Source of the DNA: Lachnospiraceae bacterium
Lineage (GTDB): Bacteria; Bacillota; Clostridia; Lachnospirales; Lachnospiraceae
Direction: 5' to 3'
DNA length: 64,000 bases
Assembly (NCBI GenBank): GCA_051879015.1
Contig: JBJELF010000040.1
Coordinates: forward strand, 2,823 to 66,822
Shown in pieces: positions 1,144 through 8,454 of the stretch; positions within the stretch are counted from its first letter, which is position 1, and each line of letters begins with the position of its first letter. The position numbers and the translations under genes were made by a program. The notes beneath the pieces were generated by a model. The model was not told the DNA's origin. It saw nothing but the letters and a program-made list of their open reading frames with translations, and did not search any database.

Positions 1144-2886
1144 ATGAGAAAAACAAAAATTATTTGTACTATGGGACCAGCAACAGCGGATGATGCGGTA
1201 CTGCGTCAGCTGATGGTTGAAGGCATGAATGTGGCAAGAATCAACTTTTCTCATGGAGATCATGAGCAGCACAAAAATACTCTGAGTCGTATTTTCCGCT
1301 TGAGAGAAGAATTAAATTTGCCAATTGCTACATTGCTGGACACCAAGGGACCAGAAATCCGTACAGGAAACTTCCAGAAAGGTAAAGTGGAGCTGAAAAA
1401 GGGGCAACAGTTTATTTTGACGATTCGTGATGTGGAAGGTGACGAGAACATGGTCTCCATCACATATAAAAATTTATTAAATGATGTCAGAGAGGGTATG
1501 CGTATTTTGATTGATGATGGTCTGATTGAGATGGTAGTTACCTCTATTACTGACACCGACATTGTATGTAAGGTATTGAATGGTGGTTTTGTCTCTAACC
1601 ACAAGGGAATCAATGTACCAAACTGTAACTTGACTATGCCCTTCATCAGCGACAAGGATTATGACGATATTACCTTTGGTATCAAGGCTGGTTTTGATTT
1701 TATTGCAGCTTCGTTTGTCCGCACAGCCGAGGATATCTTGGAGATTCGCAAGATTTTAAATGAAAATGATGCTCATCATATTAAGATTATTGCTAAGATT
1801 GAGAATGCGCAGGGTGTAGAAAATATTGATGATATTATTCGCGTATCGGATGGTATTATGGTGGCTAGAGGTGACATGGGTGTAGAGATTCCTTTGGAGG
1901 AAGTGCCAGTTATCCAAAAAATGATTATCAGCAAAGTATACAATGCGGAGAAAGTAGTTATCACAGCAACTCAGATGTTGGATTCTATGATGAAAAATCC
2001 GCGTCCAACCAGAGCTGAGGCAACGGACGTAGCCAATGCCATCTATGATGGCACCAGCGCAATTATGCTTTCTGGTGAGACTGCAGCAGGCGCTTATCCA
2101 GTGGAAGCGCTGAGAACAATGGTTCGTATTGCAGAGCGCACGGAGGCTGATATCAACTATGTAGAGCGATTCCAGATGAGAGGAACTATGGTAAATCCAG
2201 ATATTACGAATGCAATCTCCCATGCAACTTGTATGACAGCGGTCGATTTAAATGCAGTTGCCATTGTTACGGTTACCATGTCTGGAAAGACTGCTCGAAT
2301 GATTTCTAAGTATCGTCCTGCTTGTCCAATTGTTGCCTGCAGTACGAAAGATTGGGCATGGAGACAGATGAATCTTTCTTGGGGAGTTATTCCATTAAAA
2401 GTGGATGAAAAGCAGACCACCGATGACTTATTTGACCATGCTGTAGAGCGTGCGATTGAAGCTGGTTTAGTCAGTCCAGGTGAGTTGGTTGTTATCACGG
2501 CTGGAGTACCTCTGGGTATGTCTGGTACTACCAACTTGATTAAAGTACATGTGGCCGGTCATATCCTGGCAAAAGGACATTGCATCAGCAACAGAACAGT
2601 ATGCGGAGCACTCTGCATTTGTCATGATGAGACTGATGTAAAGCGCTATTTTAAGAGAGGAGATATCTTAGTAGTGCCAAAAACTACCAATGGTATGATG
2701 GATCAGCTTCGAGAGGCAGCGGGTATCATTACCGAGGAGGATGGAGAAAATTCTCATGCTGCAATTGTTGGCTATAGTTTGAATATTCCAGTTCTTCTGG
2801 GCGCAAAGAATGCGACACGTATTTTGAAAGCGGGAGCTCTTGTGGAGATTAAGGGAGAACAGGGAACTGTTTGCAGCGCAGTTTAA
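1144..2886 (+). CDS. pyk: Pyruvate kinase with a C-terminal PEP-utilizer mobile domain
   Basis: MRKTKIICTMGPA, NFSHG, TKGPEIRTG and MVARGDMGVEIP motifs. The C-terminal roughly 100 aa contain NSHAAIVGYSLNIPVL (swivelling His domain). RBS AAAGGAG. Confidence 0.95.
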   Translation: MRKTKIICTMGPATADDAVLRQLMVEGMNVARINFSHGDHEQHKNTLSRIFRLREELNLPIATLLDTKGPEIRTGNFQKGKVELKKGQQFILTIRDVEGDENMVSITYKNLLNDVREGMRILIDDGLIEMVVTSITDTDIVCKVLNGGFVSNHKGINVPNCNLTMPFISDKDYDDITFGIKAGFDFIAASFVRTAEDILEIRKILNENDAHHIKIIAKIENAQGVENIDDIIRVSDGIMVARGDMGVEIPLEEVPVIQKMIISKVYNAEKVVITATQMLDSMMKNPRPTRAEATDVANAIYDGTSAIMLSGETAAGAYPVEALRTMVRIAERTEADINYVERFQMRGTMVNPDITNAISHATCMTAVDLNAVAIVTVTMSGKTARMISKYRPACPIVACSTKDWAWRQMNLSWGVIPLKVDEKQTTDDLFDHAVERAIEAGLVSPGELVVITAGVPLGMSGTTNLIKVHVAGHILAKGHCISNRTVCGALCICHDETDVKRYFKRGDILVVPKTTNGMMDQLREAAGIITEEDGENSHAAIVGYSLNIPVLLGAKNATRILKAGALVEIKGEQGTVCSAV

Positions 2887-2900
2887 TCTGTTGTATATAG

Positions 2901-2936
2901 AGCTCCTCCCACTGCCTTTGGGCAGTGGGAGGAGCT
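2901..2936 (+). terminator. Perfect 16-bp GC-rich hairpin between pyk and dnaE with no clear U-tract
   Basis: agctcctcccactgcc-tttg-ggcagtgggaggagct. It is followed by tatgag rather than a T run, so it may be a weak terminator or an RNA-stability element. Confidence 0.45.
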
Positions 2937-2959
2937 TATGAGAAAGGAAGGAGTATACT

Positions 2960-4612
2960 ATGTCATTTACTCACCTGCATGTGCATACCGAATACAGCTT
3001 GCTGGACGGCTCATGTAAAGTGAAGGAATTGGTACAGAGAGCCAAGGATTTGGGAATGGACAGTCTTGCCATCACAGATCATGGTGTTATGTACGGTGTA
3101 ATTGATTTTTATCACGCAGCCAAAGAAATTGGCATTAAGCCGATTATTGGCTGCGAAGTTTATGTAGCTCCAGGTTCTCGCTTTGACCGAGAAAAAAATG
3201 TCAATGGAGATGACCGATATTATCATCTGATTTTATTGGCAGAAAATGACTTGGGATATCACAATCTAATGAAGATTGTTTCTTACGGATTTACAGAAGG
3301 ATATTATTATCGTCCACGTGTCGATAAGGAAATTTTGAGAACCTATCATGAGGGCATTATCTGTTTGAGTGCCTGCCTGGCGGGCGAAGTACAGCGCTAT
3401 TTGGCTAGGGATCAGTATGAGGAGGCAAAGGAGAAAGCCCTTGAATATCAAGAAATTTTTGGAAAAGGAAATTATTTTCTGGAATTGCAGGACCATGGAA
3501 TTCCAATGCAGCGCACTGTCAATACCAGCTTGCTGCGTATGAGCCGAGAACTGCAGATTCCGTTGGTAGCCACCAATGATATTCATTATATCAATGCCAG
3601 TGATGCAGAAGCTCACGATGTTTTGCTCTGTATTCAAACCGGAAAAAAAGTCAGTGACGAAAATCGTATGCGTTACGAGGGCGGACAGTATTATCTTAAG
3701 TCGGAACAAGAGATGAGGGAGCTGTTTCCTTATGCTCAGCAAGCTTTAGATAACACTCACCGTATTGCAGAGCGCTGCAGCGTGGAGATTGAGTTTGGTG
3801 TACAGAAGCTTCCCAAATTTCATGTTCCAGAGGGGTATACGGCTTGGGAGTATCTCAATAAGCTCTGTGAGGAGGGAATGTATCAGCGTTATCCCGATGC
3901 AACGCCGAAATTGTGGGACAAACTTTACTATGAGTTAGACACTATCAAAAATATGGGATATGTGGATTATTTCCTGATTGTGTGGGATTTCATTCGTTTT
4001 GCCCGCAGTAAGGATATCATGGTAGGACCAGGGCGTGGCTCCGCAGCTGGCAGTATTGTTGCTTACACTTTGGGGATCACCAACATTGACCCAATTCGTT
4101 ATGATTTGATTTTTGAGCGATTTTTAAACCCAGAGCGTGTTTCCATGCCTGATATTGATGTGGATTTTTGTTTTGAGCGCCGTCAGGAGGTTATTGATTA
4201 TGTTATTGAAACTTATGGTAAGCGGCAGGTGGCTCAAATTGTGACTTTTGGTACCATGGCTGCTCGCGGTGTCATCCGTGATGTGGGGCGTGTGCTGGAT
4301 TATCCTTACGCGTATTGTGACAGCGTGTCAAAGATGATTCCTGCTGAACTCAATATTACTATTGAGAAAGCATTGAAGATGAATCCTGAGTTAAAGCAGC
4401 TTTACGATACCGATGAGCGTACCAAAAACCTGATTGATATGTCCCTTCGTTTGGAGGGATTGCCAAGGCACACTTCCATGCATGCAGCCGGTGTGGTGAT
4501 TAGTCAAAAGCAGGTCGAGGAGTATGTACCCTTGTCGAGAGGTTCTGACGGTTCGGTAGTTACTCAGTATGTTATGACCACATTAGAGGAGTTAGGTCTT
4601 CTTAAGATGGAT
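2960..4612 (+). CDS. dnaE: DNA polymerase III alpha subunit DnaE, exon 1 (PHP domain and first part of the palm; 551 codons)
   Basis: MSFTHLHVHTEYSLLDG PHP motif and the SMPDIDVDFCFERR palm aspartates. It ends ...EELGLLKMD. The listed ORF then reads 6 codons into the intron (VRIVR, stop at 4628-4630). Confidence 0.9.
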
Positions 4613-5669
4613 GTGCGAATTGTTCGCTAACGAAACACTCCAGAAATGGAAACAAGTTAGCGGAGCAAGGAAATGAAATATTTGAGTACAGTTGGTACAA
4701 AAGTGGCTAGAGCCGCCTGCTGGAAAAAATAAAGTAAGGAACTTGTTTAACTGTTTGTTTGATTAGAATAGTGAAATTCTATTTGTTGGGTAAAGGTCGA
4801 TACCCAATCCCCTAAGACTCCGTTATGCTGTTTGGTCTTAATGCCAAATGGTATAAAGCACGGTGAAGTCGGCTGAAAAGTGCCTAAATGGCTGAAATAT
4901 ATCAGTAGTATTGGTATAAAAGTGGCTAGAGCCCACCTGTATGAAAGTATAAAGTAAAAAGTATGGTGGCGAAGTAAATCGGGGGTCCTTAAGAGAAATC
5001 TTTAAAATATAATATGCCTACACATCAGGAACTACCGTATGAAAGGCTCGTAATTTAAGACCGAAACGAAAGTTTCGTTGTCCCAATTGGGATTTTAGTC
5101 GCAGTAATTTTATTGTCCATTGAGATTACTGTACTTAACCAGTAAGGGTTAAGTGTTCTTATTCCATTCGACTAACGGAAGAAAGAATGTCTAACGGGTT
5201 AAAGGTAGAGGCTAAGTTATAATAATAAAGGATAGAACAAACGGAACAATTGAACCCTAAAAGAAAATGTTAATGCTATTAAGAGCAGATGTTTCTAACA
5301 AGTAGGAAATGACTTGTGAATTTAGGGGGCAGCAGCCCATAGTAGCGATGAAGCGGAGTAATGTCCGTGGAGCGAAGGGGCATAGTCGTAGATTAGAATA
5401 TTGTAAGATAGGTTTAAGACTAAATCCTGCAATGGAGTCTGAAAAGGCATACCTTGAAGGAATAATCATTGAAATCTTAGGAATGGAAATCTACAATAAT
5501 GTAGAATAAGGGTATAATAATCAATTCTGACAATATTCGAAAATAGATTACCGAAGTCTATTCATCTACGCTGGAACGCCGTGTGCGGTGAAAGCCGCAC
5601 GCACGGTGTGAAGTGGGGGAAAACGACCCGTAACAGAAAATGCTGACGGTGTTCGTTACCTATCACTAT
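4613..5669 (+). mobile_element. ORF-less group II intron (dnaE intron 1, 1057 nt)
   Basis: 5' end is GTGCG. Domain V at 5576-5609 is ACGCCGUGU-GCGGU-GAAA-GCCGC-AC-GCACGGUGU (34 nt, GAAA tetraloop, 2-nt AC bulge). The domain VI basal stem pairs AGUGGGGG (5612-5619) with CCU-A-UCACU (5659-5667), with a bulged A at 5662, the 8th nt from the 3' end. The 3' end is UAU. There are stops in all frames and no ORF over 70 aa. Excision joins KMD to FLGLRTL. Confidence 0.8.
5576..5669 (+). ncRNA. Intron 1 catalytic domain V plus extended domain VI
   Basis: Read directly from the sequence as described for intron 1. The lower D5 helix begins A-CGC, so the triad is CGC rather than AGC. D6 spans about 58 nt, compared with the usual roughly 35 nt. 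Confidence 0.7.
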
Positions 5670-6270
5670 TTTTTGGGATTGCGTACACTGACGGTCATTC
5701 AAAATGCTGTGAAAAATGTAAAGAAAAATCGTGGTATTGACATTGATATCGACCATATTAATTTTGATGACAGGAAGGTCTTTGATTCTGTTGGTACAGG
5801 TAGATGTGAAGGTATTTTTCAATTAGAAAGTTCGGGCATGAAAAATTTCATGAAGGAATTAAGACCAGAAAATTTGGAAGATATCATAGCAGGTATTTCC
5901 CTGTATCGTCCAGGACCGATGGAGTTTATTCCAAAGTATTTAAAAGGGAAAAATGCCAAGGATTCGATTCAGTATGACTGTCCTCAGCTTGAGCCAATTT
6001 TGAAACCAACCTACGGGTGTATTATTTATCAAGAGCAGGTCATGCAAATTGTTCGTGATTTGGCGGGCTACACTCTTGGACGAAGCGATTTGGTGCGCCG
6101 TGCCATGTCCAAGAAAAAAACAAAAGTTATGGAACAGGAACGCAAAAACTTTGTATACGGAAACGAGGCAGAGGGAGTCAGAGGCTGTGTTGCCAATGGC
6201 ATTAGCGAGAAGACAGCCAATCAAATTTATGATGAAATGATTGATTTTGCAAAATATGCCTTTAATAAGT
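5670..6270 (+). CDS. dnaE: DNA polymerase III alpha subunit DnaE, exon 2 (601 nt)
   Basis: Begins FLGLRTLTVIQ and contains GIFQLESSGM, ISLYRPGPME, IIYQEQVMQI and LVRRAMSKKK. It ends ...DFAKYAFNK plus the first nt of the Ser codon. The ORF-track residues before F (MLTVFVTYHY) are intron sequence. Confidence 0.9.
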
Positions 6271-7234
6271 GTTCGACCCGTTCTAGCTTTAAATAAACAA
6301 AGAGCTAGCACTCTTTTAGGAGTAAGAAACTAAAAATAGGAGAACTAATAATCTGATTGAGTGGAATGATGGAGTAACGCCCTGAAACACTCTCCCTAAT
6401 ACTCCGACTGGCTACACAAGAGGAAACTCTAGTAGTTAGAAGTTCGGTGAAGTCGGCAGAAGTAAACCTAAACTGATTAAAAATCAAGAGTAACATTGGT
6501 ACAAAAGAGCCTAGAGGATGCCTGTGTGAAAAAAGATATAATAAAGGCATGGTTTATGATATGCCGGGGGTCTACAAAATACCTATGGTGAGAATGTCGT
6601 GGCATCTACACGGCTGACGAACCAGCGAATTTAAGAGTCTATATGAAGCTTATAGGGAAACCCATAAGGACGCAGATGCGTCGTTGGTGTGGATTAGTAA
6701 GAATTTTTGTTATGAAACTCCATACAGTGTTATAGGCACTGTCAAGCCAACAGGATCAGAGCTAGGCACCTAAGGGTATATATGTACAGATAAGATTATT
6801 GGTACGGGGAAAGGTATCAGGCTGAGTTAATCGGTAAGTGGACGAAGAATAATAAGCCACTGAACTGGTGCCGAAAAGTAGAGGTCGCACCTATGAAATT
6901 TCTGTAATGGAAATGGAGGAATGGCCTCAAGTCGGTATAAGAATAATAGGATATTTAAGCACCTATAAAAATGCCAGATGGGTTAATGATAAATCCATAG
7001 AAAGGAACACCACAAGGAGGAATTATTTCGCCAAAACGGAACAATTGCTTACAACCGTGTAACAAACAATTCAAAATAGGTGTTTTGTTAATCTCTATAC
7101 CAACATGGATGAACTAGCATAGTTGTGTTGGTTGAATTCTATATCGATGGAACGCCGGATGCGCTGAAAGGTGCATGTCCGGTGTGGACCGGGGGAAAAA
7201 CTGGAGATCACATCAAAGGTTTACCTATCGGTAT
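6271..7234 (+). mobile_element. ORF-less group II intron (dnaE intron 2, 964 nt), homologous to intron 1
   Basis: 5' end is GTTCG; a register shift of 1-2 nt would encode the same protein. Domain V at 7153-7186 is ACGCCGGAU-GCGCU-GAAA-GGUGC-AU-GUCCGGUGU. The domain VI basal stem pairs ACCGGGGG (7189-7196) with CCU-A-UCGGU (7224-7232), with a bulged A at 7227, the 8th nt from the 3' end. The 3' end is UAU. It shares CGGTGAAGTCGGC, TTGGTACAAAAG.G.CTAGAG, GGGGGTC and TTACCTATC blocks with intron 1. No ORF over 81 aa. Confidence 0.8.
7153..7234 (+). ncRNA. Intron 2 catalytic domain V plus extended domain VI
   Basis: Same architecture as in intron 1, including the flanking CTGGAACGCC / GATGGAACGCC context, the CGC triad and the GGGGGAAAA start of D6. 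Confidence 0.7.
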
Positions 7235-8454
7235 CTCATGCTGCTGCTTATGCAGTGGTTGCCTATGAGACTGCCTGGCTCAAATATTATTATCCGGTAG
7301 AGTATATGGCAGCTTTGATGACTTCTGTGATTGAAAATGTGAGAAAAGTGTCAGATTATATGCAGACTTGCCGTCAGATGGGCATTGAAATTTTGCCCCC
7401 AGACATCAATGAAGGACAGAGTGAGTTTTCCGTTCATGGTGATAAGATTCGATACGGTCTGTCCGCACTGAAAAGCCTGGGAAAATCTGTTATTGATTCT
7501 ATAGTGGAGGAGCGAGAACAAAATGGCAAGTTTTTGACCCTCAAGGATTTTATCAGCCGCATGGAGGGCAAGGATATCAACAAGCGAGTGATTGAGAACC
7601 TGATTAAGGCTGGGGCTCTCGACAGTCTTCCTGGTAATCGTCGTCAGAAGGTGATGACTTACCCCAAAATGATGGAGCAAGTAACAAGAGAGCGCAAGGA
7701 TAATGTGATTGGGCAAATGTCCCTGTTTGATTTTGTGGAGGAAGAAGATAAAAAGGACTTGGAGATTACCTTTCCTGATGTGCCTGAATACGAGAAAAGC
7801 GAGCTGCTTGCTTTTGAGAAGGAAATCATGGGAATTTATGTCAGTGGACATCCTCTTGAGGATGATGTAGAATTATTAAAGAAAAATACCAACGCTGAAA
7901 CAAAGATGCTGTGGGCAGATGAAGAGACTGGAGAGATTCTGTTAAAGGAAGGAATGACATGCCGCATTGGAGGTTTGATTACAGATAAAACTGTGCGCCC
8001 TACCAAGAATAACCAGATGATGGCATTTTTTACATTGGAGGATATGAAAGGGAGCGTGGAAGTGGTGGTCTTTCCCAAAATTTACGAGAGATACCGGGGC
8101 TCCATTGAAATTGAGAAGAAAGTGCTGGTAGAAGGACGTGTTAGCCCGGGAACGGATGAGCAGGCAAAATTAGTTTGTGAAAAAATTATCCCATTTGAGG
8201 AGATCCCAAAACAGGTATGGATTCAGTTTGAGAACTTAGATGATTGGCAGCGACAGTCTGGATTTTTTCAGCAAATGTTGGTTGGAAAAAGAGGAAATGA
8301 TCAGATTGTCATCTATATCAAAAATCCGAGGAGTTACAAGAAATTGCCGTCTTCCTGCAATATTTCTGCTACTAAAGAAAATATCGAAAATTTTGTGCAA
8401 AAATTTGGAAAAAGTAATGTGAAAGTTATAACAACTCCTATTGAAAATAAATAG
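7235..8454 (+). CDS. dnaE: DNA polymerase III alpha subunit DnaE, exon 3 (fingers, HhH and OB-fold tail)
   Basis: Begins (S)HAAAYAVVAYETAWLKYYYPVEYMAALM and continues IRYGLSALKSLG, then an OB-fold region. Stop at 8452-8454. The three exons sum to 3474 nt, or 1157 aa, a normal DnaE size. Confidence 0.9.

What the first reader, a model, noticed from the sequence alone, without database searches (positions are those of the whole stretch)
6249..6280. Intron 2 lies four codons from the position of the classic cyanobacterial DnaE split intein
The exon 2 / exon 3 junction is DFAKYAFNK|SHAAAY. The Synechocystis and Nostoc DnaE split inteins interrupt the homologous motif as ...FAEY | CFNKSH..., with native exteins AEY and CFN. 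An RNA-level element here and a protein-level element in cyanobacteria have therefore independently colonised essentially the same ultra-conserved segment of dnaE. This is a striking case of convergent targeting by selfish elements. It also argues that the interruption is biological rather than an assembly error.
Basis: partly seen in the sequence, partly recalled or inferred. Interest (0 to 1): 0.6.

Follow-up and report, generated by a model that had tools for sequence, protein, structure and literature searches.

The report
Intron beside intein sites in dnaE
A self-splicing group II intron interrupts the DNA polymerase gene dnaE inside the loop that holds the incoming nucleotide, 13 bases from the cyanobacterial split-intein site and 1 base from a phage intein site. 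This makes the motif a repeatedly invaded hot spot, although the intron itself is an ordinary type.

Summary
Exon 2 ends ...DFAKYAFNK plus the first base of a Ser codon, and exon 3 continues (S)HAAAY.

- **Split intein distance.** Nostoc, Thermosynechococcus and Crocosphaera carry ...FAEY|CLS (intein-N) and ...ASN|CFNKSH (intein-C). The split-intein junction therefore lies 13 nt (4 codons + 1 nt) upstream of intron 2.
- **Origin of intron 2 (6271-7234).** It is an ORF-less deletion derivative of a mobile group II intron. Copies at the identical site in other Lachnospiraceae-like assemblies still carry a 637-aa RT/maturase with a weak HNH-like match. Our copy keeps a 25-aa RT relic.
- **More elements in the same motif.** A different group II intron with its own RT sits 6 nt downstream in a metagenomic contig. 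At least four Rhodococcus phages have a mini-intein exactly at FNK|SH, 1 nt from our site.
- **Where the motif sits.** It maps to E. coli Y754-H760, the helix-loop-helix of the nucleotide pocket.
- **Conserved-site bias.** Of five dnaE intron sites found, four lie in runs invariant between Firmicutes and cyanobacteria and the fifth lies two residues after one. This is atypical for group II introns.
- **No maturase.** None is detectable in this genome or in a 99%-complete relative.

An unchecked note from this scan reports a group I intron in FNKSH of a phage dnaE.

The parts
2960..4612 (+). dnaE exon 1 (residues 1-551, PHP and palm domains, ends ...GLLKMD)
4613..5669 (+). Intron 1 (ORF-less group II intron, site A at D551|F552). 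Its EBS1 GUCCAU at 5115-5120 pairs with exon AUGGAU.
5670..6270 (+). dnaE exon 2 (residues 552-751 plus the first base of Ser752)
6255..6270 (+). Codons Y747-A-F-N-K751 plus T of Ser752, equivalent to E. coli Y754-K758 in the helix-loop-helix of the nucleotide pocket. This 5' exon stretch contains IBS1 (UAAUAAGU).
6257..6258 (+). Position homologous to the cyanobacterial split-intein junction (Y|C)
6271..7234 (+). Intron 2: 964-nt ORF-less group II intron (GUUCG...UAU), site C, phase 1 in Ser752
6705..6712 (+). EBS1 (U)UUUGUUA in a loop closed by the helix GUGUGGA/UCCAUAC; pairs with exon UAAUAAG(U)
6959..7033 (+). Relic of the intron-encoded reverse transcriptase in domain IV (...KGTPQGGIISP, with an in-frame stop)
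7153..7186 (+). Domain V
7189..7234 (+). Domain VI, with bulged A7227 eight nt from the 3' end
7235..8454 (+). dnaE exon 3 ((S)HAAAY... to the stop; HhH and OB domains)

Best explanation
Intron 2 is a resident, ORF-less descendant of a mobile group II intron. The intron's homing site is the Asn-Lys-Ser codons of the invariant FNKSH motif of dnaE.

Shown: RT-bearing copies sit at the same nucleotide position in other assemblies, and our copy retains an RT relic.

Inferred: an RNP of intron RNA and its RT (which carries a weak HNH-like match) reverse-spliced into the DNA. It was guided by EBS1 (UUUGUUA), whose G and U residues can wobble-pair with either synonymous codon of Asn (AAY) and Lys (AAR). 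After fixation the ORF decayed independently in several lineages.

Because the intron sits in the sole dnaE (PolC is the only other C-family polymerase here), it must be removed from the mRNA. No group II maturase is detectable in this genome. Splicing is therefore most likely self-catalysed or helped by a host factor, as reported for C.te.I1 of Clostridium tetani.

Its closeness to intein sites (13 nt from the cyanobacterial split intein, 1 nt from a Rhodococcus-phage mini-intein) is convergence, not shared descent. The Y-x-F-N-K-S-H loop is invariant across phyla at the protein level and nearly so at the DNA level. That gives homing elements a target present in many hosts. It also means that only a precise deletion of the element would be viable.
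For: - Rfam RF02004 and RF00029 match the intron.
- The D5/D6 fold is kept, with both-sided changes at 13 of 27 pairs across 10 related introns.
- The same intron lies at the same site in G369, L013, L015, L164, L184, L216, L223, L245, L250, L272 and L274.
- L015 (2875 nt) and L216 (2838 nt) are full-length. The L015 ORF reaches TIGR04416 at 353 bits, with a weak HNH match.
- Our domain IV holds a 25-aa relic 72% identical to that RT. The deletion end points differ from those in G369, and L013 has an internal IEP deletion.
- EBS1 pairs with A-Y-A-A-R-U in every copy and lies in a loop closed by a covarying helix.
- There is a single dnaE plus PolC, and all exons are intact.
- No RVT_1 or TIGR04416 hit in G000 (95% complete) or G369 (99% complete).
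- Intein junctions were read directly from genomes.
- The motif maps to E. coli Y754-H760. The preprint 10.64898/2026.06.29.735100 assigns Y754 to stacking on the dNTP, K758 to the finger pivot and H760 to the rNTP steric gate.
- Four of the five intron sites lie in runs of at least 4 residues invariant between this protein and three cyanobacterial DnaEs; the fifth lies two residues after one.
Against:
- The genome is a 132-contig MAG, and repeated RT-bearing introns often fail to assemble, so the absence of a maturase is not proven.
- The 5' end is GUUCG rather than GUGYG, and EBS1 mismatches position -1 (U x U) in our copy.
- The EBS2 candidate (AAAGGC, 6543-6548) has no covariation support.
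- The wobble-tolerant-guide idea rests on 4 of 4 free choices, a small sample.
Confidence: 0.8

Rival explanations
1. Pure coincidence: group II introns insert without regard to conservation, and one of them happens to lie near the intein site.
For: Swithers et al. 2009 found no conserved-site bias for group II introns in general (p = 0.49). Under a uniform model, three independent intron families have about a 2% chance of one falling within 4 codons of a given site.
Against: Four of the five dnaE intron sites (D551|F552, Q672/E673, K751/S752, H753/A754) lie in runs of at least 4 invariant residues, which cover only 10.4% of the protein, and the fifth (about D636/F637) lies two residues after one. 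The chance of three independent sites all falling in such runs is about 1e-3. Two different introns and two different inteins fall within 19 nt.
Confidence: 0.1
2. The interruption is an assembly artefact, or dnaE is a dead gene.
For: The source is a fragmented MAG, and no RNA evidence is available.
Against: The interval is a complete ribozyme with covarying helices. The same intron is at the same site in many independent assemblies from different samples. The exons join in frame into the only dnaE of the genome, about 77% identical to relatives.
Confidence: 0.02
3. Intron and intein are mechanistically linked. For example, the intron exploits a site once cut by an intein homing endonuclease, or one element descends from an invasion of the other's allele.
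For: The insertion points are 1 and 13 nt apart, and the exon stretch guiding the intron would overlap a 12-40 bp endonuclease recognition site centred on either intein junction (that size range is quoted).
Against: No intein or intein relic lies in or near this dnaE or the intron-bearing relatives examined. The hosts are Firmicutes, Cyanobacteria and actinophages. All 120 cyanobacterial alleles are split and lack an endonuclease, and the 153-aa phage insert shows only intein splicing-domain matches. Retrohoming needs no pre-existing break.
Confidence: 0.03

Closest known systems
Cyanobacterial DnaE split intein (Ssp/Npu DnaE; Wu et al. 1998; Caspi et al. 2003, as cited in PMC2677866)
   Same: It interrupts the same helix-loop-helix of DnaE; native exteins ...FAEY | CFNKSH were verified here in 120 loci.
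   Different: It is a protein-level element, it lies 13 nt upstream, the gene is physically split into two loci, it is found in another phylum, and its +1 Cys replaces the Ala/Gly of other DnaEs.
Mini-intein in DnaE of Rhodococcus phages (Weasels2, Trina, Dorin and NiceHouse read here; Grayson, Peregrin and Francesca by intein match only)
   Same: It is inserted at FNK|SH, the same residue boundary as intron 2 and 1 nt away at the DNA level.
   Different: It is a contiguous class-1-like intein of about 150 aa (Cys1, TxxH, HN|S). The records annotate the gene only as a polymerase. I found no paper on it, but I did not search for one specifically.
C.te.I1 of Clostridium tetani (ORF-less class B group II intron; PMC3919590)
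   Same: It is an ORF-less intron of Firmicutes reported to splice without any IEP encoded in the genome.
   Different: C.te.I1 lies in a surface-layer gene region and undergoes alternative splicing. The present introns sit in invariant catalytic motifs of an essential polymerase gene.
Trichodesmium erythraeum replication genes (four group II introns in dnaN; inteins plus introns in the ribonucleotide reductase and thyX genes; PMC4143802 and papers cited there)
   Same: Several ORF-less group II introns sit in a replication gene, and inteins and group II introns occur in the same conserved genes.
   Different: This is a cyanobacterium. By my recollection of Meng et al. 2005 (cited, not read) a maturase from a sister intron acts in trans. 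dnaE itself is not reported to hold group II introns there.

Membership tests
Group II intron (Rfam RF02004 D1-D4 type plus RF00029 D5/D6) | Domain V hairpin and domain VI with a bulged branch-point A near the 3' end | tested here: met
   RF00029 scores 55.7 bits against a gathering score of 40, with the full model matched at 7150-7234. A7227 is bulged 8 nt from the end, and 13 of 27 pairs show both-sided changes in 10 relatives.
Group II intron (Rfam RF02004 D1-D4 type plus RF00029 D5/D6) | Domain I core of the subclass | tested here: met
   RF02004 scores 136.4 bits against a gathering score of 34.5, with model positions 1-201 matched at 6340-6578. The same family matches all relatives.
Group II intron (Rfam RF02004 D1-D4 type plus RF00029 D5/D6) | 5' GUGYG and 3' AY boundaries | tested here: inconclusive
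   The 3' end is AU. The 5' end is GUUCG (G3 changed to U), conserved in all 10 site-C copies whose 5' end was read, whereas sister introns at site B have GUGCG.
Group II intron (Rfam RF02004 D1-D4 type plus RF00029 D5/D6) | EBS1 in a domain I loop complementary to the last bases of the 5' exon | tested here: met
   6706-6712 UUUGUUA pairs with UAAUAAG (7 bp, 2 of them G-U). In the G369 lineage AUUUGUUA pairs with UAAUAAAU (8 bp). The loop is closed by a covarying helix.
Group II intron (Rfam RF02004 D1-D4 type plus RF00029 D5/D6) | Intron-encoded RT/maturase in domain IV | tested here: not met
   This copy has only a 25-aa relic with a stop. The feature is met in the homologous copy L015, whose 637-aa ORF reaches TIGR04416 at 353 bits. 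L216 has the same full length (2838 nt), but its ORF was not scanned. ORF-less members of the family are accepted in the literature.
Group II intron (Rfam RF02004 D1-D4 type plus RF00029 D5/D6) | Excision from the transcript with ligated exons | not testable with these tools
Excision is inferred from the intact, conserved sole dnaE.
Same insertion site as the cyanobacterial DnaE split intein | Insertion at the identical residue boundary (Y|C) | tested here: not met
   The intein boundary is at Y747|A748 and the intron lies in codon 752, 13 nt apart. The motif is the same but the site is not.
Same insertion site as the Rhodococcus-phage DnaE mini-intein | Insertion at the K|S boundary of FNKSH | tested here: met
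   The phage junctions read ...FNK|CL...THN|SH... in four phages. The insert is an intein by TIGR01443 (29.3 bits against a cut-off of 15.6) and by similarity to the Spl DnaX mini-intein 7CFV (E = 6e-5). Intron 2 is 1 nt downstream of that boundary.

The most novel reading that the evidence does not exclude
This RF02004 intron lineage of Lachnospiraceae-like bacteria has adopted the strategy normally seen in inteins and group I introns. It homes into invariant active-site codons of an essential replication gene, with at least five sites in dnaE and four occupied at once in one contig. It uses guide bases that wobble-pair with synonymous codon variants. It then loses its ORF and persists as a maturase-independent resident intron. 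If so, the Y-x-F-N-K-S-H loop of C-family polymerases is a general landing pad shared by two inteins, two group II introns and possibly a group I intron.
Probability: 0.35. Interest if true: 0.65.

Novelty: new member of a known kind. Interest (0 to 1): 0.5.

Why it matters
Bacterial group II introns are usually described as avoiding conserved genes and conserved sites. Here a family of them occupies the most invariant motifs of the dnaE polymerase gene. One sits in the loop that holds the incoming nucleotide, a loop that inteins have also invaded twice, in unrelated hosts.

This gives a natural system for comparing RNA-level and protein-level selfish elements at one target. It can be used to test whether conserved-site homing and wobble-tolerant guides aid spread between genera.

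It also allows a test of how ORF-less introns in a probably essential gene are spliced when no maturase is encoded. That question bears on how resident introns arise.

On the practical side, such genes appear as split or pseudogene dnaE fragments in gene calls: many 481-486-aa ORFs begin at MQIVRD.

Tried and rejected
1. GCUUAU (intron positions 378-383) as EBS1. It pairs with the exon, and L015 seemed to show a compensatory change, but it is the 5' strand of a local hairpin (CUUAUAGGG/CCCAUAAG) that covaries within the intron. Rejected.
2. AAAGGC (6543-6548) as EBS2. It matches our exon perfectly but has a mismatch in most relatives and is absent in L223. Left as unsupported, so I do not claim that IBS2+IBS1 exactly fill the 13 nt.
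3. Alternative boundaries 6269/7232 and 6270/7233. They give the same protein but are disfavoured.
4. In-frame inserts in the G192 DnaE (1429-aa open frame in the scan) as possible inteins. They are low-complexity segments.
6. The 401-genome protein scan does not list split genes. I re-queried 20 suspect genomes by handle.
7. Pfam did not recognise the phage intein; NCBIfam and PDB searches did.
8. Only one of 1293 phage records had two separate matching places, and it was not listed.
10. Literature searches found no report of group II introns in dnaE.

Full report
**What is there**

The + strand carries one dnaE gene in three exons: 2960-4612, 5670-6270 and 7235-8454. They join into a 1157-aa protein without a stop. 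Pfam finds PHP, DNA_pol3_alpha, finger, HhH and OB domains.

Both gaps are group II introns by Rfam. Intron 2 matches RF02004 at 136 bits (6340-6578) and RF00029 at 55.7 bits, ending at 7234. The junction reads D-F-A-K-Y747-A-F-N-K751 | S752-H-A-A-A-Y. Codons TAT GCC TTT AAT AAG occupy 6255-6269, and the Ser codon is split as T(6270) | CT(7235-36).

**Exact boundary**

Three boundary placements give the same protein. I favour 6270|6271 ... 7234|7235 (GUUCG...UAU) for these reasons:
- Sister introns begin GUGCGACUCGUUC and end UAU, so ours differs by one substitution.
- The Rfam D5/D6 model ends there in every copy.
- In the G369 lineage the exon reads AAAT|GTTCG. That excludes the leftmost alternative, which would start the intron with A. 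Its EBS1 (AUUUGUUA) pairs through position -1.

**The intein comparison, read from genomes**

Each has an intein-C of about 35-36 residues in front of CFNKSH.

In Nostoc punctiforme NIES-2108, DnaE-N ends ...EQMLKFAEY|CLSYDTEIL and DnaE-C reads ...NGFIASN|CFNKSHSTAY. Thermosynechococcus and Crocosphaera are the same.

Aligned with our protein, the intein junction falls at Y747|A748, which is window 6257|6258. Intron 2 lies 13 nt downstream, that is four codons plus one base. So the motif is the same but the site is not identical.

**What intron 2 is**

Proteins resembling exon 3 led to contigs in which the same intron sits at the same nucleotide. In some of these it carries a gene:
- L015 holds a 2875-nt intron with a 637-aa ORF. 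The ORF reaches the group II RT/maturase model TIGR04416 (353 bits, cut-off 300) and has a weak HNH match.
- L216 holds a 2838-nt intron.
- L223 holds a 2011-nt intron.
- L013 has an IEP with residues 104-584 deleted.
- G369, L184 and L250 hold 963-nt ORF-less copies.
- L272 and L274 hold further ORF-less copies.

Our 964-nt copy is 81% identical to L015 over domains I-III. In domain IV (6959-7033) it keeps a 25-aa relic...KGTPQGGIISP, that is 72% identical to that RT and contains a stop. Its deletion end points differ from those of G369, so the ORF was lost more than once.

D5 and D6 are conserved, with both-sided compensatory changes at 13 of 27 pairs among ten related introns. The branch-point A is bulged at 7227.

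**Target recognition**

EBS1 lies at 6705-6712 in a loop closed by GUGUGGA/UCCAUAC, a helix that covaries in relatives. UUUGUUA pairs with exon UAAUAAG.

The exon varies among copies as A-Y-A-A-R-U, following synonymous changes of Asn (AAY) and Lys (AAR). The facing guide bases are G and U, which pair with either variant. The same holds for the site-B intron (CUUGGU with AUCAAG) and for intron 1 (GUCCAU at 5115-5120 with AUGGAU). This suggests a guide that tolerates third-position transitions, but the sample is small.

An earlier EBS1 candidate and an EBS2 candidate were rejected or left open (see Tried and rejected).

**Catalogue of the motif and of dnaE**

- **Site D.** Contig L014 carries a different intron 6 nt downstream of ours (CAT G|GTGCGTCC, phase 1 in Ala754). 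It has a 484-aa RT/maturase only 37% identical to the site-C protein and without the HNH-like region.
- **Phage intein at FNK|SH.** In Rhodococcus phages Weasels2, Trina, Dorin and NiceHouse, DnaE reads ...(S/Q)FNK|CL...(about 150 aa)...THN|SH.... Three more phages match the intein. The insert matches the intein C-terminal model TIGR01443 (29.3 bits, cut-off 15.6) and the Spl DnaX mini-intein 7CFV (E = 6e-5). It has Cys1, a TxxH block and HN followed by Ser. That boundary is 1 nt from our intron.
- **Unchecked note.** I could not check it.
- **Other dnaE intron sites in the same bacterial family.** These are D551|F552 (our intron 1, and fragments), about D636/F637 (L274), and Q672/E673 (G241 with an RT; G271, G369, G371, L014, L272 and L274 without). 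Contig L274 has four introns at once.
- **Frequency.** In a sample of 401 genomes, one per genus, of the window's family, only G000 and G369 have the site-C intron and four genomes have the site-B intron. This count comes from the scan plus a re-query of the 20 genomes with weak or multiple matches.

**Why this spot**

The motif maps to E. coli Y754-G-F-N-K758-S-H760. A 2026 preprint with ternary-complex structures makes the following assignments:
- Y754 stacks on the incoming dNTP.
- F756, N757 and H760 lie within 4 Å of the dNTP.
- K758 is the pivot of finger closure.
- H760 is the steric gate against rNTPs.

Between our protein and three cyanobacterial DnaEs there are 20 runs of at least 4 invariant residues. 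Together they cover 120 of 1157 positions, or 10.4%. Sites A-D lie in such runs and site E lies two residues after one. For three independent sites the chance of all being in such runs is about 1e-3.

This departs from the general finding that group II introns show no conserved-site preference (Swithers et al. 2009, PMC2814812). Given that bias, adjacency to an intein site is only mildly improbable, about 1 in 7.

I read the closeness as convergence. A target that is invariant across hosts is easy to home into. An element lodged there can be lost only by a precise deletion.

**How it works in this genome**

There is one dnaE and one PolC. No reverse transcriptase or group II maturase is detectable in this 95%-complete MAG. 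None is found in G369 (99% complete), whose only group II introns are two ORF-less ones in dnaE.

Splicing is therefore most likely self-catalysed or host-assisted, as described for C.te.I1 (PMC3919590).

**Verdict**

The intron is an ordinary member of a known class. The interest lies in the recurrent use of one active-site loop by inteins and introns, and in the conserved-site habit of this intron lineage. I found no paper describing group II introns in dnaE.

Noticed in passing
L274 (ENA ERZ17292903, k87_36443352), about 1460-4930: One dnaE gene carries four ORF-less group II introns at once (sites KMD|FLG, GPMD|F, YQ^EQ and FNK^SH). The GPMD|F site was seen nowhere else here.
   Followed up: partly
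L268 (Rhodococcus phage Weasels2, KX774321.1: 63893-64351) and L269-L271: A mini-intein of about 150 aa is inserted at FNK|SH of the phage DnaE. The records annotate the gene simply as DNA polymerase III alpha. Pfam does not detect the intein; NCBIfam TIGR01443 and PDB 7CFV do.
   Followed up: partly
window 6271-6275 and all site-C copies whose 5' end was read: The intron 5' end is GUUCG rather than GUGCG in all 10 site-C copies whose 5' end was read, whereas sister introns at site B keep GUGCG. A compensating change in the epsilon' partner was not looked for.
   Followed up: no
/ protein list: Dozens of database ORFs of 481-486 aa start at MQIVRD. These are the downstream halves of dnaE genes split by the site-B intron (YQ^EQVMQI), so gene callers routinely mis-annotate these genes.
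   Followed up: partly
L144 (G192:C19): This DnaE is unusually long (1429-aa open frame in the scan) and has two long low-complexity in-frame inserts of about 50 and 150 aa, in the finger domain and before the HhH domain. They are not inteins.
   Followed up: partly
H1, MT835501.1 ('Bacteriophage sp.', human faecal sample): A 54-kb record labelled as a phage encodes a DnaE segment 78% identical to ours and uninterrupted in this region. It may be a misbinned bacterial contig or a phage with a host-like dnaE.
   Followed up: no
window 7235-8454 compared with L015: Exon 3 is much more diverged from L015 (54% identity) than exons 1-2 (77%). This may be ordinary C-terminal variability, or a sign of recombination at the intron.
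   Followed up: no
L275 (GCA_029782595.1): Here dnaE is called as three abutting ORFs with no room for introns. The cause is probably frameshift errors or a deletion, not splicing.
   Followed up: no
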